Virus genome (UHGV): UHGV-0067872
Source: a virus
Length of the DNA stretch: 39,401 bases
Strand: one strand, 5' to 3'
A program made the position numbers and the translations under genes. Position 1 is the stretch's first letter; every line of letters starts with the position of its first letter. Positions 5,600-38,025 of this stretch are shown here, piece by piece. Below the pieces are notes generated by a model. The model was given only the letters and a program-made list of their open reading frames with translations. It was not told where the DNA came from and did not search any database.

Positions 5600-6070
5600 C
5601 TAATAAAATACCCAATTTTCTGTTTCTTGGTTGTGCCCAAAGTTATATTCAATATCTGGTGTTGATGTATCAATATTCTTCATCCCATCAACAAGAGTTG
5701 ATACAACAGCCAAATCTTGTTTGATTCTCATTAAATGGTATTTCTTCCGGCGCAATAAACTTTCAATGGCAAGTTTCTTCGTTGGGAATGCAAAAGATCT
5801 TTCTGCATTTTTTGCTACTTTCTTAATTGCATATCTATTTCTCCTTTGTTTCCATTCCTGTAACCACTGATTTGGTGCTGGTTTAAAATTAACAATCCAA
5901 TGCGCAGGAACCAACCATGCATAATGCTCTGTCTGATGAAAAGCTATATATTGAAGTGCGAATATTTTTATCCCATCTTCTTCAACTGTCGCCTGGAATC
6001 TCCAGAAAACAGGCATTCCATCATGTTCAGTTTCTGATTCAGGAAAAGGTACGCTCCATGATTTTGTCAT
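5600..6070 (-). CDS. Basic hypothetical protein (156 aa), AT-rich moron
   Basis: ORF directly downstream of N; markedly AT-rich DNA versus flanks; K/R-rich centre; no recognised domain. Confidence 0.5.
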   Translation of the reverse strand: MTKSWSVPFPESETEHDGMPVFWRFQATVEEDGIKIFALQYIAFHQTEHYAWLVPAHWIVNFKPAPNQWLQEWKQRRNRYAIKKVAKNAERSFAFPTKKLAIESLLRRKKYHLMRIKQDLAVVSTLVDGMKNIDTSTPDIEYNFGHNQETENWVFY

Positions 6071-6078
6071 ATCTCACC

Positions 6079-6378
6079 TCAAATAAGTGGTTTGCTGCCT
6101 AATTTCATTTTCTGGCGACCAACACAAGTCACACCCATTTCACTGCGCGGCTTGCGGTAGTAAATACGGTTCTGTTTACGCTCGACTTCTTCTGCCTTCT
6201 TGCAGCGAAGGCTTCCGAGTGATGCTGCTTTATCTGCTCTGACGCAACCAGAGAGCTTTAGCGCAATTTTTCGCGCCAGTCGCTGCTCTTGCATTGCCTG
6301 TTCACGTTGAGTCTGTCTGCGTGCTCTGCGGCGATTTCTGGCGTTATCGTCAGCCAGATATGTAATGACTACTGTCAT
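6079..6378 (-). CDS. N: N-type transcription antiterminator
   Basis: Arg-rich motif NARNRRRARRQTQREQ near N-terminus; C-terminus YYRKPRSEMGVTCVGRQKMKLGSKPLI parallels lambda N as I recall it. Confidence 0.75.
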   Translation of the reverse strand: MTVVITYLADDNARNRRRARRQTQREQAMQEQRLARKIALKLSGCVRADKAASLGSLRCKKAEEVERKQNRIYYRKPRSEMGVTCVGRQKMKLGSKPLI

Positions 6379-6571
6379 GTTGACCTCCGATGATTGACTT
6401 TGGTGATTGGATGGCCGGTGCTGAATTCCGGCTTACTGGTTAGAGCGCCCGCACTACCAGTGACGCTGTCTTGAGGCGCAGATTGGTTACTGCTTGCCAT
6501 GAGCGCTGTTTATACATTGGTCGAGCATCAGCCTGCTCATTCATCCAATCCCAAAGCCAACTACTCTTTGG

Positions 6572-6614
6572 TTCCCGCATTTCGGCGGGACAATCACATC
6601 AATGTTAAAGAGCC
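6572..6614 (-). promoter_or_regulatory. nutL (boxA-like GCTCTTTAA plus boxB hairpin)
   Basis: Minus strand reads TCCCGCCGAAATGCGGGAA; the same hairpin recurs on the plus strand at nutR. Confidence 0.5.
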
Positions 6615-6661
6615 TGCCAATCTGTTCCGTTTGGCTTCCAGCGTCCTGCTGATGGCTAAAG

Positions 6662-6746
6662 AATACTGTAGGTATTTTATTGTGTAAATACCCAAGGTAT
6701 TTGTTTTTGGTGAAATAATGATAAGCAAATGAATACAAAGGATATT
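6662..6746 (-). promoter_or_regulatory. OL operator cluster / PL region
   Basis: Palindromes AATAC-N5-GTATT at 6662-6676 and 6687-6701 and a weaker copy at 6732-6746; same consensus as the OR sites. Confidence 0.5.
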
Positions 6747-6832
6747 TATTTTTTCGCTGTCTGCTTGTTCAGTGATTTTTATGCGGGATATGTGAAGTGG
6801 ATCCCGATAGCTATTGCTGCCGGGATTATGGG

Positions 6833-7201
6833 TTAGTCAGCGAAGGTTAAGACGAGAATTACCTTAATGATGTCTGCTACAACAGACACGGCCATAGATA
6901 AACCAAAGACGATCCAAGCCACAGTGATGTCTTCACTACCATCGTATAGAGTTCCGTAATCACTGGTGTAAGGCGTAAATGTCGCGCCTTGATACAATAG
7001 GTATAAGCTTGATCCATAGAGGATAAATGCAGATATCCCTTGTATTGCTATGATCACAAGAATCATGAAACGAGCTGATCTATGCGCCCAAGCCTGGCTT
7101 ATTTTTTCTGATAGAGATTTCGCAATAAAAGCATGCGCTAAGCCGTAAATTGTCGAGATTGCCAACATCCCAAAAAAGCTTGCTATAGCGGTTCCAACCA
7201 T
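6833..7201 (-). CDS. Small polytopic membrane protein co-transcribed with cI
   Basis: ORF track 6833..7222 (TTG start overlapping cI stop); I prefer ATG at 7201 with AAGGGG SD; three predicted hydrophobic helices. Confidence 0.55.
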   Translation of the reverse strand: MVGTAIASFFGMLAISTIYGLAHAFIAKSLSEKISQAWAHRSARFMILVIIAIQGISAFILYGSSLYLLYQGATFTPYTSDYGTLYDGSEDITVAWIVFGLSMAVSVVADIIKVILVLTFAD

Positions 7202-7218
7202 AATCGCCCCTTGCGTGA

Positions 7219-7935
7219 TCAAACCAGCCTTAGTTTTGTCTCAATTGCAACGCCTATAATCTTGCAGTTTCCATTGATTGGCACGAGAGGCCATGCAGGA
7301 TTAAGTCCCTTGAGGTATTTATTTCCGCCGTCGATTATCAGCTTCTTGAATGTTGCTTCGTTAGAGTCAGAAAGTTTTGCTATGACCAAGCTGCCGTTGA
7401 TCGCCTCCCTTCCGGTATCGAAAAGAACGAATGTTCCCTCTGGAATGCTTAACCCAACCGGTGCCGTCATTGAATCACCTTCCACTTTAAGCCAAAACGC
7501 ATTACCTTGAATATGCGCGTCAGACTCAAGCCAAACATCTATGTCTTTAATGGTGTATGGTTCGCATGCTTCACACCACGAGCCAGCCTGGATACTGCTT
7601 AACACCGGATACCTCTTTCCTGCTCTGTATTCCCCTGCATACCTTACGTTGGCATCGCTCTTAAGGCTTTCTGCCTGTTCTGCAACCTTGGCAGCAATTG
7701 ACTGGCTAAAATCAGCAATTGAGACTTGCAACAATCGTGCAAAACCAGATGCAACCTCAACGTTTAGCGCGTTTCTGCCATTAAGATAATGCCCTACCGC
7801 TCCTTGGGTGATACCCAGTTCATCAGCGATTGAGTATTGGGTTATTCCCAATTCTTTCTTTTTTGACTCATACAAAGCCTTAAGCCGCTTAGCGTCTTCG
7901 AGCTGTTCTGTCGTCAGTGATTTTTTATTTTCCAT
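7219..7935 (-). CDS. cI: cI-type repressor (HTH + S24 LexA-like autopeptidase domain)
   Basis: N-terminus LTTEQLEDAKRLKALYESKKKELG resembles lambda cI; C-terminal domain with AGSWCEACEP and VEGDSM motifs of S24 peptidases; divergent from cro. Confidence 0.9.
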   Translation of the reverse strand: MENKKSLTTEQLEDAKRLKALYESKKKELGITQYSIADELGITQGAVGHYLNGRNALNVEVASGFARLLQVSIADFSQSIAAKVAEQAESLKSDANVRYAGEYRAGKRYPVLSSIQAGSWCEACEPYTIKDIDVWLESDAHIQGNAFWLKVEGDSMTAPVGLSIPEGTFVLFDTGREAINGSLVIAKLSDSNEATFKKLIIDGGNKYLKGLNPAWPLVPINGNCKIIGVAIETKLRLV

Positions 7936-7946
7936 AGCCTAATTCT

Positions 7947-8010
7947 AATAGCTAAGGTACTTAAACTAAAAATACCCTGAGTATTGATTGCTTTGAATAC
8001 CTGTAGTATT
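7947..8010. promoter_or_regulatory. OR operator cluster (three sites) with PRM/PR
   Basis: AATAC-N5-GTATT palindromes at 7971-7985 and 7996-8010 plus a degenerate copy at 7947-7961, about 25 bp apart. Confidence 0.55.
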
Positions 8011-8041
8011 CTTTGTTCATGGTTAATAACGGAGAGTGCAT

Positions 8042-32837: not shown

Positions 32838-33158
32838 TTAGCGGTTGATGGTTGCTTTTTTCGGGTCATACCATCTCGGCCATTCTTTCAGGAATGGGAA
32901 TGAGTCGGGTGCGTGGTTCTTTTTGTACGATTTAAGCAGCCTTAACCGCTCAATCGCACACTCATAAACCTCTTGTTGCCCTGTAGTCATCTCGGTCCAT
33001 GAAAGGTGATCCATTGATAAGACAACGTTTTCAGCTTCTTTTATGAGGGCGTTTTTATTTCTCACCGCAGCAGCATGGCTGACAGAGCAATCCTGCCATA
33101 TTCTTAAAAGCCAAATAGCTAAGCAGATGAAAAAAATGGTAGATAGCGATATATACAC
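32838..33158 (-). CDS. N-terminally membrane-anchored protein (106 aa) downstream of the immI-type repressor
   Basis: GTG start with perfect AAGGAGG SD; hydrophobic helix LSTIFFICLAIWLLRIW; AT-rich; occupies the sieA-like slot. Confidence 0.5.
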   Translation of the reverse strand: MYISLSTIFFICLAIWLLRIWQDCSVSHAAAVRNKNALIKEAENVVLSMDHLSWTEMTTGQQEVYECAIERLRLLKSYKKNHAPDSFPFLKEWPRWYDPKKATINR

Positions 33159-33218
33159 ACCAACCTCCTTAGTTTTGAACAGGATACCAGATGATAATGT
33201 GTCGCTTCCTAAAGGATA

Positions 33219-33860
33219 TCAAAGCAACGGGATTTCAAGGTAAACTGCGGTTGCCAAAATACTAACATCTTCATTTCTAACAAGAATATTAGGATACATT
33301 GGGTTTAGGGATACTAGGTTTGTCTCTATTTCACCAATGTAAACCTGTTTGAAGCTCAATATTTGCTCTTTATCCAATGATGCTATTACATAATCTTTGC
33401 TTTTAGCTTTTACTAGAGGGCTGAACGTGACAACCGATCCTCTGGGAAAGCTAATACCTGAACTTGTAGTCATAGCTTCACCTTCAATAGTCAATGCAAA
33501 TGCAGAGTCACCAACATTGTATATTGCCGGATGAAATCTAGACGATGAATGTTCACCTGTGTTTAGATAATGCATAACTTCATCTAGTTTGAGGATTGGT
33601 ATTTGCTTTACCAGAACGTCAGGCATGACGTTTTTTGTTCCCGGACCCTGACCTTCACCTAGAGCTAACCACTCAGCTGTAGTACCTAATGCGTTGGCTA
33701 ATGCCTGCAATACCCGAAGCCGTGGTTTAGCCTCACCACCCTCGTATGCAGCTATTTGACGTTGAACAACACCAGCTAATTTTGACAACTGCGCCTGCGT
33801 CATACCCCTGGACTGTCTTGCCAGAGATACTCTTGATGGGAATTGATCGTCAAAATTCAT
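33219..33860 (-). CDS. Second cI/LexA-type repressor (HTH_XRE + S24 peptidase domain)
   Basis: HTH segment MTQAQLSKLAGVVQRQIAAYEGG; C-terminal S24-like domain (TIEGEAMT...); divergent from Arc-like gene. Confidence 0.8.
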   Translation of the reverse strand: MNFDDQFPSRVSLARQSRGMTQAQLSKLAGVVQRQIAAYEGGEAKPRLRVLQALANALGTTAEWLALGEGQGPGTKNVMPDVLVKQIPILKLDEVMHYLNTGEHSSSRFHPAIYNVGDSAFALTIEGEAMTTSSGISFPRGSVVTFSPLVKAKSKDYVIASLDKEQILSFKQVYIGEIETNLVSLNPMYPNILVRNEDVSILATAVYLEIPLL

Positions 33861-33959
33861 TAGTTCACCATAAAAAATTCATTGACTCATACTGAGTGTG
33901 AGTGAATAATCAAACTACAAAAAGTGAGATTATGAGTTTTTTAAAAACAGGAGTGCATA

Positions 33960-34133
33960 ATGACTGAAAAGATATCTTCCATCAAGCCGCGTCAGGTTCG
34001 TTTTACAGAAAAGGTTGATTCACATATCCGCGAATCAGCAAAAAGATGCCATAGGTCAATTCAGGCAGAGATAGCTTATCGAATGGAGTTATTGATGAAA
34101 CTTGAGGCAAAGGGCGATGTTGTCATCCAATAA
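33960..34133 (+). CDS. Arc/CopG-like ribbon-helix-helix repressor (57 aa), absent from the ORF track
   Basis: Hand translation MTEKISSIKPRQVRFTEKVDSHIRESAKRCHRSIQAEIAYRMELLMKLEAKGDVVIQ; AGGAG SD; beta-strand then two helices. Confidence 0.5.
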   Translation: MTEKISSIKPRQVRFTEKVDSHIRESAKRCHRSIQAEIAYRMELLMKLEAKGDVVIQ

Positions 34134-34206
34134 AAATAGTGAAGCCCGGCAGTGCGCGAACACAAACCGGGCCTCTATGTCAGTAACCGTATACAAGGAA
34201 ACTAAC

Positions 34207-34845
34207 ATGAACATTGTAGCAAAATCAGATTATAACTTCCAAGGATTCACTTTTAACCCTGTAACAGAGGGTGGGTCTATCTGGTTTACCTCCACCGAAC
34301 TAGCTAAGGCTCTCGGCTATAAAAAAACTGATGCCATCAGCCAAATTTATGCCCGTAATGCTGACGAGTTTTCCGACTCAATGTCATTGACCCTCAATAT
34401 GAAGGTCAACGGGATAAACAATAGCTTACGTAACAAATCGGTCAGAGTTTACTCGCTCCGAGGCGCTCACTTGGTGGCGATGTTTGCTTCTACGCCCAAG
34501 GCCAAAGAGTTCCGCCGCTGGGTGCTGGATATTTTGGATCGGCAGGCAGAATGCTCACCGATTGCAAAACAGTTTACTGATGAAGAACTGGTTAATCTCT
34601 GCTACTTACAATTGTGGATGGAGAAGAGTCAACAAATGTGCAAACACATCTACCCAGGAATGAAGCAAATTGGTTCTGAGCTTTCAGGAAGAATTTACGA
34701 TATTGCATATGAGACTCGCTATATGTCAGAAGAAACCAAGAAATCACTTCTTCGTGAAATGAAGAATCTTGATACCAACAATTTTGTCGTAAAGAACGCT
34801 CAGCCAATGCTGACAAAACTGCGCGGCGAGGAATGGATTCATTGA
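34207..34845 (+). CDS. Antirepressor with Bro-N domain
   Basis: FQGFTFNPVTEGGSIWFTSTELAKALGY...VYSLRGAHLVAMFASTPKAKEFRRWVLDIL is a Bro-N signature; ATG 34207 with AAGGA SD. Confidence 0.7.
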   Translation: MNIVAKSDYNFQGFTFNPVTEGGSIWFTSTELAKALGYKKTDAISQIYARNADEFSDSMSLTLNMKVNGINNSLRNKSVRVYSLRGAHLVAMFASTPKAKEFRRWVLDILDRQAECSPIAKQFTDEELVNLCYLQLWMEKSQQMCKHIYPGMKQIGSELSGRIYDIAYETRYMSEETKKSLLREMKNLDTNNFVVKNAQPMLTKLRGEEWIH

Positions 34846-34933
34846 TTGGTGCGCCGGACGGCGCAAAAAGAAAACCGCCAGTGTGCTGCTGGCGGCCTAT
34901 GTCACACCCTTACAACCACATAAGGAATGCCTA

Positions 34934-35659
34934 ATGACTTTGAAGAATGTAGCAAACATCGGATCCGTTGTCACGGATAAAACCATTGACAGCCAAAGTC
35001 TTCTGATGATGGTTAATGAAGCTCGCAAGTTATGTGGAGAGCCATCAGTACGTAACAACAAATTCATCGAGAAAATTGAGGATGAATTGGAGGGCGAGAC
35101 CTACACAAAAAGTGTAGGTCGGAAAAACGGGGCTGACATTGATGTTATCTCCATGACTATCAAGCAGGCGCTTCGTGTTGCTGCTCGCGAATCTAAAGCA
35201 GTTCGCCGAACACTTGTAGACAAACTTGAAAGTATGCAGGAAGCACACATTAAAAGCGGTAAATCAGCGAGTGGACTTGTTGAGTATCGTCAAGCGCGAA
35301 CATTGAAAATGACGGTTGAAGCTGTTACCAATCTGTTCGATCTGATGCCAAATCTTGCGCCTGAGGCAAAGCAGACAGCGGCAGCAAGTATAATCAACCC
35401 GCTCGTTGGTTTTAATGCAATACCTCTTCCGGCAATAGAAGAGCATTACTACTCAGCAGGGGAGGTTGCAGAGCAGCTTGGAGTAACGGCCAACAAGATT
35501 GGTCGCATTGCTAACGCAAACAACCTCAAAACTGAGCAGTACGGGAAGTTCTTCCTGGATAAATCTGCACATTCCAGCAAACAGGTGGAAGCATTCCGCT
35601 ACAATGCGGAAGGTGTTAAAGCACTACAACACCTGATTCATGGGAGTAATGTTGCATAA
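34934..35659 (+). CDS. Rha-like regulator / second antirepressor-like protein
   Basis: ATG 34934 with AAGGA SD; C-terminal HTH-like AGEVAEQLGVTANKIGRIA; family assignment tentative. Confidence 0.45.
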   Translation: MTLKNVANIGSVVTDKTIDSQSLLMMVNEARKLCGEPSVRNNKFIEKIEDELEGETYTKSVGRKNGADIDVISMTIKQALRVAARESKAVRRTLVDKLESMQEAHIKSGKSASGLVEYRQARTLKMTVEAVTNLFDLMPNLAPEAKQTAAASIINPLVGFNAIPLPAIEEHYYSAGEVAEQLGVTANKIGRIANANNLKTEQYGKFFLDKSAHSSKQVEAFRYNAEGVKALQHLIHGSNVA

Positions 35660-35880
35660 TGGCAAAGAAAAAATATGGCATTATGCCGCCAAGAATCAAA
35701 GGAAGAGCCAGGGTAAAAGGCGATGCTGGAAGGTATCACATTCTTGGAGTTCTGTGGCATGAGAGAGCTTTAATTTTAAGCAGACCTCATGGGTATATTG
35801 AAAAGGTATCTATAGATAGAATTGAGATTCTTCCCCTTACTCCTGAAGAAGAAGAAACGTACGGACTTTTTGATAACTAG
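35659..35880 (+). CDS. Hypothetical protein (73 aa)
   Basis: Start overlaps upstream stop (TAATG); followed by strong terminator. Confidence 0.4.
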   Translation: MAKKKYGIMPPRIKGRARVKGDAGRYHILGVLWHERALILSRPHGYIEKVSIDRIEILPLTPEEEETYGLFDN

Positions 35881-35891
35881 CCAATTCACTA

Positions 35892-35916
35892 AACCCAGCT
35901 TCTGCTGGGTTTTTTA
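35892..35916 (+). terminator. Rho-independent terminator
   Basis: ACCCAGC-TTCT-GCTGGGT followed by T6. Confidence 0.65.
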
Positions 35917-35973
35917 TGCCCAAAATTCACCGTGGCAATGCTGCGGCGATTCCTTGTATCTGGAGTAAATTAA

Positions 35974-38025
35974 ATGACAGATTCAATAAATGCCAATGTT
36001 GTTGTTTCACAACCAAGTCAGTTATTCACTTTAGCTCGCTCGTTTAAAGCAAATGCTAATGGCAAAATTTATATCGGTAAAATTGATACTGACCCGGTAA
36101 ATCCTGAAAACCAGATTCCGGTTTATGTAGAGAACGAAGACGGTTCTCACGTTCCTGTTTCGCAACCAATCATCATTAACGCTGCTGGTTACCCGGTATA
36201 TAACGGACAGATTGCCAAGTTCGTTACTGTACAGGGCCATTCTATGGCTGTTTATGATGCGTATGGGGCACAGCAGTTTTATTTTCCAAATGTGCTGAAG
36301 TATGATCCGGATCAGCTAAGACATGAGCTAGCGTCGGAAGCGGGAACAACTTTAATAGGGAAGGGTGATCGAACTCTTGAAGAGTACTTAGAATCAAGCA
36401 AGGAAGATTTTGATAACTCATGGAAGAGATATGTAGGTAAATCTACAACGACACAAAAAGATAGCGCATACTCTGGAGCGGCTCACTACCAACCAGTTAG
36501 CGATGATGGGAGCACAATTGGTAATTATACATTTGAATCACCGGTGATTGTTGACTTCTCATCTACATCAGATTGTGTTATGCCAGATTCTGGTGTCGTT
36601 TTCAAAATGGGAGCTAATGGACTTACAAGTGGTAATTATTTTTCTCAAGATAATTACCACTTAAAAAATGTAACGGCAATTGGCGGTACCCCTGAAATTG
36701 TTACATTTGAACCATACACAGGATTGACAGCACTAGTAGATGGTGTTCGTATTATAAATAATGGCTCTCCAGACAAGACCGCTATTAATTTTAAAGGACA
36801 GAACTGGTGGCCTACAGTATCTAATAATATATTTAAAGATTATACAGATAAAAGAGGAAATTTTTGCAAGGCAATAGATGACGGAGGAGATTCATCTATA
36901 AGAAGGAGTGGGAATAGTAGATTGCTTTTCACTGGAAATAAAGTCTACTTTGGTGGGGATGCTCTTGGTGGTACGATGTTGAAAGCCAGCGCTGTCTTTA
37001 ATATTATAAAAGATAATGCCTGTGAACACGGAGAGAACGCGATTGTGTTTGAGTACCCATCATCATTCTCAGTTATCGACGGACTTTACACAGAATGTTC
37101 TTTTGGTGGTGGTAATCAGATAGTAATTGGTGACAAAGAACCTGATCCTAATATTGCAACAATGAATATGATTGGAATAACTATTAAGAATGTTTATTTC
37201 AATAATCATTCACATTCATCAAATAGGCTAATCAAATCTGGAAATGAAACCGTAAGAATAGACAGGTTAATTGTTGATAATATAATTGTCACAAATGCAA
37301 ATGTTGCATCGCCAGTTATTGAGTTGAATGATGTTCCTGGGCAATCGATTTGTGTCGGAAATGTATACTCTGGAGTTTCACTAATAAATAAAACAAGCAA
37401 TGCTGTAAAAATAATAGATATGAATAATAATTTTATTAAATCGCTAAATGGTAATTTAGCGTCTTCGGGGGGGGACTCCGCAACAGTAAATAATTCTAGA
37501 GAAAAAGTATTTGGTAACTTTTTTATTCAATCAACAGGAAGTTTGTCAGTTAGCAGATATGCAAGTGGTAATCAGTATCAAAAAAATAGAGAGTCAAAGA
37601 ACTACGCGGCTATAACCATAGCTCCTAATACTTCGTGCGGTTTTGAGTGGCAGAACCCAAGATATTCAGACCTATCTGGATCTACAGCAACAGTTCAGTT
37701 TCTAGCCAAAGCAAGCACTACAGTGAGTGCAGTAGTTTTAGTTAAATACAAGAACAGTTCTGGAGGTGACACGCTTGCAGCATCATCAATTAGTATTAAT
37801 GGTGGTGATTTTCAGGAGTTTACTATTCCATTCTTTGCTAACCGCAATGATGATGATGATTCTGTTCTCTCTGTTGATATTAGATTTGAAAATACATTAT
37901 CAAGCATTGTTTTTTATATTTGTGCTTTTAGATTAAACAGGGGGGATACAGGACTATGCCGGTCTGCTAATGATTATACGACAGGAGAGATTGATGCAGA
38001 GATATCAAAATTCACATTTTATTAA
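35974..38025 (+). CDS. Tailspike protein with P22-type N-terminal head-binding domain
   Basis: N-terminal ~115 aa closely parallels the P22 tailspike head-binding domain; the remainder is unrelated and AT-rich. Confidence 0.9.

What the first reader, a model, noticed from the sequence alone, without database searches (positions are those of the whole stretch)
6833..7222. Polytopic membrane protein co-transcribed with cI at the rexAB position
A 122-129 aa ORF with three predicted transmembrane helices starts within 20 nt of the cI stop on the same strand, upstream of OL/PL. It would therefore be expressed from PRM in lysogens, the position lambda uses for rexA-rexB. It has no similarity to RexB or SieB that I can recognise. 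Lysogen-expressed small membrane proteins at this locus are classic superinfection-exclusion or abortive-infection effectors, so this is a candidate single-gene defence determinant.
Basis: inference. Interest (0 to 1): 0.65.

Follow-up and report, generated by a model that had tools for sequence, protein, structure and literature searches.

The report
Orphan membrane gene behind phage repressor
A small three-helix membrane protein gene (hkaS, listed since 2001 as "unknown") sits directly behind the repressor gene of this P22-like prophage, so dormant phages should make it; its position suggests it blocks other phages, but nobody has tested this.

Summary
ORF 6833..7222 (-) is a real gene. Its conserved product is 122 aa, starting at ATG 7201, which lies 17 nt after the cI stop and has its own Shine-Dalgarno sequence. 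The protein has three long hydrophobic helices (AlphaFold pLDDT 92) and a predicted N-out/C-in topology. cI and this gene together lie between the OR and OL operator clusters, where lambda carries rexA-rexB.

The gene is not a new discovery. It is hkaS of coliphage HK620 (GenBank 2001, "unknown"; PHROG 6534, unknown function). It occurs in 146 of 5,426 complete E. coli genomes and is always fused to the same cI lineage.

It is a true orphan. There were no Pfam, NCBIfam or PADLOC hits. A profile search of 1.84 billion proteins found only its own family. It shows no similarity to RexB, SieA, SieB, Hex or holins, and no specific fold match.

It is under purifying selection (omega 0.14, against 0.03 for cI).

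Defence is plausible by position. In other lambdoid phages the same slot holds rexAB, a type II restriction-modification system, hex, bstA or stk, or nothing. I found no functional evidence.

My best guess is a lysogen-expressed exclusion protein in the inner membrane. A moderately interesting, testable candidate.

The parts
6833..7201 (-). hkaS coding sequence (122 aa from ATG 7201; stop TAA 6833-6835). The mechanical ORF extends to TTG 7222 (129 aa).
   Evidence: It is 99% identical to HK620 hkaS. It matches phrog_6534 over its full length, E 2.4e-79. omega is 0.14. AlphaFold model pLDDT 92.
7202..7218 (-). 17-nt cI-hkaS spacer TCACGCAAGGGGCGATT carrying the Shine-Dalgarno sequence AAGGGG.
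   Evidence: An AAGG(A/G) motif upstream of the ATG is kept in all four divergent lineages, although the rest of the spacer differs.
7219..7935 (-). cI repressor (238 aa; HTH_3 plus Peptidase_S24), first cistron of the maintenance operon.
   Evidence: Pfam E 5e-24 and 8e-10. HK620 cI annotation.
7942..8011 (.). OR region: OR3 7946-7962, OR2 7970-7986, OR1 7995-8011. It also holds an inferred PRM -10 (TAGAAT, 7947->7942 on the minus strand), which would give a near-leaderless cI mRNA.
   Evidence: Coordinates transferred from the HK620 annotation with an offset of +3886. Operator motif matches at 7971-7985 and 7996-8010. The PRM hexamer is my own reading of the sequence, so it is an inference.
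6801..6826 (-). GC-rich stem-loop starting 6 nt after the hkaS stop. It is a candidate 3' end or stabiliser of the PRM transcript and has no clear U-tract.
   Evidence: A hairpin occupies the same position in L003, L007 and L009, with a different sequence in L003 and L007. The HK620 record places tIMM further downstream, equivalent to window 6721-6751.
6660..6746 (-). OL1 (6662-6676), OL2 (6687-6701), OL3 (6732-6746) and PL (-35 TTTACA 6688-6683; -10 TATTCT 6665-6660).
   Evidence: 9 motif matches against 0.39 expected, all at OL or OR. HK620 annotation.
6578..6619 (-). nutL (boxA GCTCTTTAAC and a boxB hairpin).
   Evidence: Transferred from the HK620 annotation through the alignment.
6079..6378 (-). 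N-like antiterminator, first gene of the PL operon. It marks the far side of the slot.
   Evidence: phrog_271, E 1.6e-36. Pfam N_peptide match, sub-threshold.

Best explanation
Shown or strongly supported: hkaS is a genuine, selectively maintained gene. It encodes a 122-aa cytoplasmic-membrane protein with three transmembrane helices. The predicted topology puts the N-terminus and the acidic Tyr-rich loop 71-92 in the periplasm, and the basic loop 25-45 and the C-terminus in the cytoplasm. It is the second cistron of the cI maintenance operon of HK620-type immunity regions, with the order OR/PRM - cI - 17 nt - hkaS - hairpin - OL/PL.

Inferred from that layout: the protein is made whenever cI is made, that is from PRM in lysogens and from PRE during establishment, and its synthesis stops on induction.

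Inferred function: it is a prophage accessory exclusion protein acting at the inner membrane. The most likely mechanism is interference with genome delivery by superinfecting phages across the cytoplasmic membrane, as described for P22 SieA, T4 Imm and HK97 gp15, without killing the cell. An invariant polar cluster in the inner leaflet (Q54, D110, K113), together with the near-invariant cytoplasmic loop KISQAWAHRxARF and the C-terminal tail ILVLTFAD, would form the functional core. The variable periplasmic hairpin would be the face exposed to incoming phage proteins.

My sub-confidences:
- Real membrane-protein gene co-transcribed with cI: about 0.9.
- Anti-phage role of any kind: about 0.55-0.6.
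- Entry block specifically: about 0.3-0.35.

The overall confidence given (0.35) refers to the full statement, including the entry-block mechanism.
For: Gene reality and selection:
- omega is 0.14 at dS 0.67, against cI omega 0.03 at dS 0.74 in the same genome pair.
- Salmonella alleles L003 and L005 have 0 nonsynonymous differences and pS 0.12.
- The exact protein is found on at least 1000 public contigs.

Membrane topology:
- Hydropathy peaks are 1.67, 2.29 and 2.28.
- The AlphaFold model has pLDDT 92 and three helices of 28-33 residues.
- In all six lineages the region 25-45 (cytoplasmic end of TM1 plus loop 1) carries 3-6 Lys/Arg, while loop 71-92 carries 0-1 Lys/Arg and 2-4 Asp/Glu.

Operon structure:
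- The spacer is 17-20 nt with a conserved SD in all lineages.
- The scan found no promoter or terminator on this strand in cI or the spacer.
- Operator motifs occur only on either side of the cI-hkaS pair.
- The HK620 record annotates tIMM, OL and pL downstream.

Linkage:
- hkaS and this cI occur together in 16 of 16 phage records and in 146 of 146 E. coli genomes.
- The module is found in P22-like phages, in HK- and mEp-series lambdoid coliphages and in Stx phages.

Guilt by position. The same slot holds:
- rexAB in lambda.
- A type II R-M system in TL-2011c and F004.
- hex in 434 and Sf101.
- bstA in BTP1 and stk in 933W (PMC8585504, PMC3564112).
- Nothing in P22, mEp213, SEN22, 720R6 and OS31.

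Other points:
- Like SieA, whose best-conserved motif is predicted to be cytoplasmic (PMC10883804), the best-conserved part here is cytoplasmic (78% mean identity, against 53-61% elsewhere).
- This window has no SieA homolog.
Against: - There is no experimental datum. I found no paper in the searched library that mentions the gene.
- It matches no defence model in PADLOC.
- I saw no signature of positive selection. It is only 4-5 times less constrained than cI.
- The periplasmic loop is only about 20 residues, which is a small surface for binding ejection proteins.
- The conserved face is cytoplasmic. That fits a cytoplasmic partner or trigger at least as well as an entry block.
- The family is confined to one cI lineage and has never been seen with another repressor. 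bstA, by contrast, is reported across diverse Gram-negative bacteria (PMC8585504). This may hint at a function tied to this particular immunity switch.
- Expression from PRM is inferred, not measured. The downstream hairpin lacks a U-tract.
Confidence: 0.35

Rival explanations
1. Abortive-infection effector. HkaS oligomerises into a latent pore or ion-conducting assembly, like RexB but without RexA. Phage infection triggers it, the membrane potential collapses or lysis comes early, and the cell is sacrificed.
For: It occupies the RexB position. Invariant polar and charged residues (Q54, D110, K113) sit inside TM2 and TM3 at the same depth, and conservation in TM3 falls on one helical face (2% of shuffles reach the observed value). 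It has the three-TM N-out/C-in layout of class I holins (my own knowledge). Three characterised occupants of the slot (RexAB, BstA, Stk) are abortive systems (PMC8585504, PMC3564112).
Against: There is no partner or sensor gene: nothing lies between cI and hkaS or between hkaS and OL. There is no soluble domain to sense infection. It shows no similarity to RexB or to the P22 holin. It lacks the charged C-terminal tail of holins. Constitutive expression of a pore-former needs tight gating, and nothing in the sequence indicates such gating.
Confidence: 0.2
2. Modulator of the phage's own lysogeny switch or induction, analogous to 434 Hex (lowers spontaneous, RecA-dependent induction) or lambda RexA (biases the switch). 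The conserved cytoplasmic face would act on cI, RecA access or a host protease, and any exclusion would be secondary.
For: Linkage and co-divergence with a single cI lineage are perfect: 16 of 16 phage records, 146 of 146 genomes, and similar dS for both genes. The most conserved parts face the cytoplasm. There is precedent for slot genes affecting induction (PMC3564112; bioRxiv 10.1101/2021.04.19.439022, listed).
Against: The protein is almost entirely membrane-embedded, with only about 20 cytoplasmic residues. It is unrelated to Hex (probability 0.1%). The tight linkage is also explained simply by the 17-nt spacing inside one recombination module.
Confidence: 0.12
3. Lysogenic-conversion factor unrelated to phage defence. 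It would be a small inner-membrane protein that modulates a host transporter or stress pathway, or that gives immunity to a membrane-targeting toxin, as the three- or four-helix immunity proteins of pore-forming colicins do.
For: Its size and three-TM architecture resemble small regulatory membrane proteins and pore-forming-colicin immunity proteins (my own knowledge, not tested here). It is common in gut Enterobacteriaceae: E. coli, Salmonella and Hafnia.
Against: There was no Pfam or NCBIfam match to any such family. Every characterised occupant of this slot has an anti-phage phenotype (PMC8585504; PMC3564112).
Confidence: 0.13
4. Functionless passenger: a conserved ORF that hitch-hikes with cI, or a mis-called gene.
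For: No function is known. Rare variants have a frameshifted N-terminus (P0006, P0007 and P0009).
Against: omega is 0.14. Alleles with 12% synonymous and zero nonsynonymous change exist. The SD and the 122-codon length are conserved down to 52% identity. All sampled RefSeq copies are intact.
Confidence: 0.03

Closest known systems
HK620 hkaS (AAK28867; phrog_6534; RefSeq WP_000233129 and WP_000233128)
   Same: It is the same gene, with 99% amino-acid identity. It has the same position between cI and tIMM/OL3 and the same 17-nt spacer.
   Different: Nothing of substance differs: one amino-acid change (G20V in HK620). All records call it 'unknown' or 'hypothetical'.
Lambda RexB (with RexA)
   Same: It is a polytopic inner-membrane protein encoded downstream of cI, between OR and OL, in the PRM maintenance operon.
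   Different: There is no sequence relationship (hhalign probability 0.7%). It has three predicted helices, not the four reported for RexB (my own knowledge). It is 122 aa, not 144 aa. There is no RexA-like partner gene.
P22 SieA
   Same: It is a small polytopic inner-membrane protein made by P22-like prophages, and its best-conserved segment is on the cytoplasmic side (PMC10883804).
   Different: It is unrelated in sequence (probability 0.3%) and lacks the FxRYPxEAxxFNK motif. sieA lies between genes 16 and 9 under its own promoter, not in the cI operon.
434 / Sf101 Hex
   Same: It is the second cistron after a related cI (52% identical) on the PRM transcript. Hex excludes P22 and lowers spontaneous induction (PMC3564112).
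   Different: Hex is a 134-aa protein with a signal-peptide-like N-terminus and no internal TM helices. It is unrelated to hkaS (probability 0.1%).
BstA (BTP1), Stk (933W) and the type II R-M system of TL-2011c/F004
   Same: They occupy the same cI-proximal slot and are presumed or shown to share the repressor promoter. All are anti-phage (PMC8585504; PMC3564112).
   Different: They are soluble enzymes or DNA-binding proteins, much larger, and unrelated in sequence and mechanism.
T4 Imm and HK97 gp15
   Same: They are small inner-membrane proteins that block phage DNA entry. These are the functional analogues for the favoured mechanism (my own knowledge).
   Different: They differ in size, number of helices and genomic location. 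I did not compare the sequences here.

Membership tests
hkaS / phrog_6534 | Full-length sequence match to the family profile | tested here: met
   E 2.4e-79 over residues 1-122 of 122. 99% identity to HK620 hkaS.
PRM-operon accessory gene of a lambdoid immunity region (rexAB slot) | Same strand as cI, directly downstream, with no intervening promoter or terminator, and located between OR and OL | tested here: met
   17-nt spacer. The scan found nothing on this strand in cI or the spacer. Operators flank the pair. HK620 annotation.
PRM-operon accessory gene of a lambdoid immunity region (rexAB slot) | Transcript terminator (tIMM) after the accessory gene | tested here: inconclusive
   A GC hairpin at 6801-6826 is conserved in position in four lineages but has no U-tract. 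The consensus scan found no terminator. HK620 annotates tIMM at the equivalent of 6721-6751.
PRM-operon accessory gene of a lambdoid immunity region (rexAB slot) | Expressed in lysogens | not testable with these tools
   I found no transcriptome of a lysogen with this immunity type.
Lambda Rex system (RexB) | Sequence homology to RexB | tested here: not met
   hhalign probability 0.7%. No PADLOC hit.
Lambda Rex system (RexB) | Adjacent RexA sensor gene | tested here: not met
   There is no other ORF between cI and OL.
Lambda Rex system (RexB) | Infection-triggered membrane depolarisation and exclusion of T4 rII | not testable with these tools
   Needs experiments.
P22 SieA | Sequence homology and the cytoplasmic motif FxRYPxEAxxFNK | tested here: not met
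   hhalign probability 0.3%. The motif is absent from the 122-aa sequence. The motif is taken from PMC10883804.
P22 SieA | Gene located between the homologs of genes 16 and 9 | tested here: not met
   hkaS lies in the immC region. The gene 16-gene 9 interval of the window (32838-35974) holds other genes.
SieB | Sequence homology, and location in the PL region opposite N | tested here: not met
   hhalign probability 1.8%. The location differs.
434 Hex | Sequence homology | tested here: not met
   hhalign probability 0.1%. Hex has a signal-peptide-like N-terminus and no TM bundle.
Class I holin | Three TM helices with N-out/C-in topology | tested here: met
   Predicted from hydropathy, charge distribution and the AlphaFold model only.
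Class I holin | Homology to a holin family, location in the lysis cassette, and a charged C-terminal tail | tested here: not met
   No Pfam or PHROG holin hit. Probability 0.5% against P22 gp13. The gene is in the immunity region. The protein ends ...VLTFAD straight after TM3.
Known anti-phage defence systems (PADLOC-DB v2) | Match to any defence-protein model | tested here: not met
   0 families at E <= 10.

The most novel reading that the evidence does not exclude
HkaS is a self-contained defence system in a single 122-aa protein. It would be a three-helix inner-membrane protein that both senses phage genome entry or envelope perturbation and responds, by plugging the entry conduit or by opening an ion leak through its conserved Q54/D110/K113 cluster. 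That would found a new, sequence-orphan family of repressor-operon exclusion proteins and show that a RexB-type outcome needs no RexA-type sensor.
Probability: 0.15. Interest if true: 0.65.

Novelty: new member of a known kind. Interest (0 to 1): 0.38.

Why it matters
[quoted passage not shown] It repeatedly houses anti-phage cargo: rexAB, bstA, stk, hex and R-M systems. HkaS fills that slot in about 2.7% of complete E. coli genomes, including O145:H28 and O111:H8 strains, and in Stx2c-converting phages. It has no homolog outside its own small family and no assigned function.

If it is an exclusion protein, it would be a new minimal membrane defence family that current defence finders miss. 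It would bear on the choice of phages for therapy or biocontrol against lysogens. It would also give a simple model, with one small protein and a confident structure model, for how inner-membrane proteins stop phage genome entry.

If it instead tunes induction, that would matter for the stability of Stx and other prophages that carry this immunity type.

Tried and rejected
- Family assignment failed everywhere. Pfam gave only sub-threshold, composition-driven hits to Cation_ATPase_C and TssN. NCBIfam and PADLOC gave none. The PDB sequence search gave none.
- Remote homology failed. The word-indexed search found 12 clusters, all of them family members. The exhaustive HMM search of 1.84 billion representatives found 2.
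- I tested whether 434 Hex, the slot gene of the nearest well-studied cI relative, is a homolog. It is not, and it is not a polytopic membrane protein.
- I looked for positive selection as an arms-race signal. I found only purifying selection, relaxed relative to cI. The distant pairs are saturated at synonymous sites.
- The lower nucleotide identity of hkaS compared with cI among E. coli genomes comes partly from indels in the spacer that was included in the query. I do not count it as evidence of diversification.
- Helical conservation periodicity was significant only for TM3.
- Literature searches found nothing on function. I searched for hkaS, for the accessions, and for mEpX2, HK630, HK140, Hf4s and phi296. 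I also checked the DefensePredictor supplements.
- The Kapi1 lysogen transcriptome paper was not usable, because Kapi1 lacks this immunity region.
Full report
**1. What is there**

The window is a complete-looking P22-like (Lederbergvirus) temperate phage genome. It is a mosaic: its best large-scale matches are Kapi1, 611R6 and CUS-3, while its immunity region is that of coliphage HK620 (99.4% identity).

On the minus strand the order is:
- OR operators and the PRM region (7942-8011)
- cI (7219-7935; HTH_3 plus Peptidase_S24)
- a 17-nt spacer
- the flagged ORF
- a GC hairpin (6801-6826)
- OL3, OL2 and OL1, overlapping a PL-like promoter (6660-6746)
- nutL
- N (6079-6378)

The operator half-site pattern AATACCNNNNGTATT occurs only at these two clusters. 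There are 9 strand-matches against 0.39 expected, and no shuffle reached that number. The cI-ORF pair is therefore bracketed by OR and OL exactly as cI-rexA-rexB is in lambda.

**2.

The mechanical ORF runs 6833..7222 (129 aa from TTG), and the TTG overlaps the cI stop. The conserved start is ATG 7201 (122 aa), preceded by AAGGGG. Relatives only 52-83% identical all begin at the equivalent ATG with an AAGG(A/G) box. In L003 an in-frame TAA immediately precedes the ATG.

Three hydrophobic stretches reach Kyte-Doolittle means of 1.67, 2.29 and 2.28. From a 7-sequence alignment, AlphaFold2 gives:
- mean pLDDT 92.1 and pTM 0.79
- helices 2-29, 41-73 and 89-121
- a short amphipathic helix at 31-38
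- a beta-hairpin at 78-86

In all six divergent lineages the region 25-45 (cytoplasmic end of TM1 plus loop 1) carries 3-6 Lys/Arg. The 71-92 loop carries 2-4 Asp/Glu and at most one Lys/Arg. By the positive-inside rule this gives an N-out/C-in topology. No dedicated topology predictor was available.

**3. It is a real gene under selection**

I used Nei-Gojobori estimates on codon alignments.
- Window against the 83%-identical relative (called Hafnia paralvei by NCBI; DNA taken from metagenome contigs L009/L010): hkaS dN 0.093, dS 0.67, omega 0.14. The adjacent cI in the same pair has dN 0.022, dS 0.74, omega 0.03.
- The matching dS values indicate that the two genes have diverged together as one unit.
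- Two Salmonella alleles differ at 12% of synonymous sites and at no nonsynonymous site.
- At greater distances cI stays 86-88% identical and Cro 82-92%, while HkaS drops to 52-61%.

HkaS is thus clearly constrained, but 4-5 times less so than the repressor. I saw no evidence of positive selection.

**4. It is already catalogued, but as unknown**

The gene is hkaS of HK620 (AAK28867, "unknown"). The HK620 record also annotates tIMM, OL1-3 and pL downstream. It matches phrog_6534, "unknown function", over its full length. All public names are "hypothetical protein". The exact protein occurs on at least 1000 contigs, and its 90% cluster has 525 members.

I found no paper in the searchable library that mentions it. 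The papers on phages that carry it (Hf4s; phi296/phi367) do not discuss it.

**5. It is a sequence and fold orphan**

- Pfam gave only sub-threshold hits. NCBIfam, PADLOC and the PDB sequence search gave nothing.
- The word-indexed search found 12 clusters, the named ones from Escherichia, Salmonella and Hafnia.
- An exhaustive HMM search of 1.84 billion representatives found just two proteins, both family members.
- Profile-profile comparisons gave these probabilities: lambda RexB 0.7%, lambda SieB 1.8%, 434 Hex 0.1%, P22 SieA 0.3%, P22 holin gp13 0.5%.

**6. Linkage and distribution**

In the phage collection, 16 records carry hkaS and 16 records carry this cI at 99% identity or more, and every hkaS-carrying phage listed also appears among the near-full-length immunity-region matches. 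In complete E. coli genomes, both genes are found in 146 of 5,426 genomes, at 147 places each. Every divergent homolog I could place sits 17-20 nt after a cI of the same lineage and before OL/PL/N.

The next-nearest cI relatives lack hkaS:
- Serratia phage OS31 (71% identical cI) has an empty slot.
- 434 and Sf101 (about 52%) carry hex.

The module travels with P22-like virion genes, with other lambdoid coliphages of the HK and mEp series, and with Stx-phage genomes. Whatever HkaS does is therefore not tied to the carrier's own virion type.

**7. What the slot holds elsewhere**

| Phage | Cargo after cI | Source |
|---|---|---|
| P22, mEp213, SEN22, 720R6, OS31 | none | |
| lambda | rexAB | |
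| 434, Sf101 | hex, named for heterologous exclusion of P22; also lowers spontaneous induction | PMC3564112; |
| TL-2011c, F004 (Stx phages) | type II methyltransferase plus restriction endonuclease (PADLOC MTase_II, E 1.7e-235) | |
| Stx2 phage 1717 | soluble 173-aa protein of unknown function | |
| BTP1 | bstA | PMC8585504 |
| 933W | stk | PMC3564112 |

Owen et al. explicitly call the cI-N interval a hotspot whose occupants share the highly active repressor promoter (PMC8585504). Every characterised occupant has an anti-phage phenotype. This is the main argument, and a purely positional one, for a defence role.

**8. Clues from the protein itself**

The best-conserved parts are:
- the cytoplasmic loop SxKISQAWAHRxARF (78% mean pairwise identity; 9 of 16 positions invariant)
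- the last ten residues, D-I-x-K-x-I-L/F-VLTFAD

The tip of the periplasmic hairpin is the most variable part (4 of 22 positions invariant).

Three polar residues inside the bilayer are invariant: Q54 in TM2, and D110 and K113 in TM3. Given the predicted topology, all three lie about 7-10 residues from the cytoplasmic ends of their helices. They would therefore form a polar cluster in the inner leaflet (the depth is my inference).

This pattern fits several roles: an oligomeric or ion-conducting core, a site for a partner helix, or simply a structural core. SieA likewise has its best-conserved motif on the cytoplasmic side (PMC10883804). The pattern therefore does not discriminate between an entry block and abortive infection.

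**9. Most likely mechanism and rivals**

My best-supported account is this. HkaS is made with cI in lysogens, and from PRE during establishment. It inserts into the inner membrane and acts as an exclusion factor. Most characterised single small prophage or phage inner-membrane exclusion proteins (SieA, Imm, HK97 gp15) block genome entry without needing a sensor, and HkaS has no partner gene or soluble domain. I therefore favour an entry block at about 0.3-0.35, and an anti-phage role of any kind at about 0.55-0.6.

The rivals are:
- a RexB-like or holin-like abortive effector (0.2)
- a Hex-like or RexA-like modulator of the switch, suggested by the exclusive association with one cI lineage (0.12)
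- a non-defence conversion function (0.13)
- a functionless passenger (0.03, largely excluded by selection)

Two steps are inferred rather than shown: expression from PRM and every functional statement.

**10. Verdict**

The positional interpretation is supported. The functional interpretation is plausible but untested. The gene is not newly discovered. It is a long-catalogued orphan in a well-known accessory slot.

It is a reasonable, cheap experimental target. One caution applies: over-expressed hydrophobic peptides can give non-specific, Rcs-dependent phage resistance (PMC12704755), so tests must be done at native dose. Interest is moderate, at 0.38.

Noticed in passing
window 32838-33158 (-): A 106-aa ORF with an N-terminal hydrophobic anchor (VYISLSTIFFICLAIWLLRIW...), phrog_10450, function unknown. 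It sits just after the gene-16 (ejection protein) homolog. P22-like phages keep sieA at that position, so this is a second candidate membrane exclusion gene in the same phage.
   Followed up: partly
window 33219-33860 (-), 34102-34845 (+), 34883-35659 (+): The immI-equivalent region holds a second LexA/S24-type repressor-like gene (213 aa) and two Ant-like antirepressor genes. There is no SieA homolog.
   Followed up: partly
window 6729-6836 (+): A 35-aa very hydrophobic ORF (MNTKDIYFFAVCLFSDFYAGYVKWIPIAIAAGIMG) converges on hkaS and overlaps OL3 and the post-hkaS hairpin. The underlying DNA is identical in HK620 but unrelated in the Salmonella relatives, and there is no good SD. It is probably a chance ORF.
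   Followed up: partly
window ~6456-6540: An 85-bp segment between nutL and N is present here and in phage 611R6 but absent from HK620. The sequence just upstream of N also differs from HK620. In 611R6 an ORF here is annotated, dubiously, as 'repetitive proline-rich cell wall protein 2'.
   Followed up: no
L014:2109-2513 (lambda imm434 hex): Hex begins MIRIAALLSILLTTSANSEC, which looks like a signal peptide and suggests an exported protein. That is hard to square with its published role of shielding the cytoplasmic 434 repressor from RecA. It may also explain why over-expression of the full-length protein was toxic.
   Followed up: no
L021:2688-4278 and L022:2616-4296 (Stx phages TL-2011c, F004): A complete type II restriction-modification pair sits directly downstream of cI on the same strand, in the rexAB-equivalent slot.
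   Followed up: partly
proteins P0006, P0007, P0009 (E. coli hkaS variants): Rare alleles have a frameshifted, hydrophilic N-terminus (MITQGGAYGWNRYSKLFGDVGNLNNLRLSACF...) in place of TM1, then return to frame near residue 27. They could be sequencing errors in the T6/G3 run, or natural two-TM variants.
   Followed up: no
window 5600-6070 (-): A 156-aa ORF directly downstream of N matches phrog_1636 (function unknown) over its full length. HK620 has a different gene (hkaQ) at this position, so the mosaic junction lies right after N.
   Followed up: no
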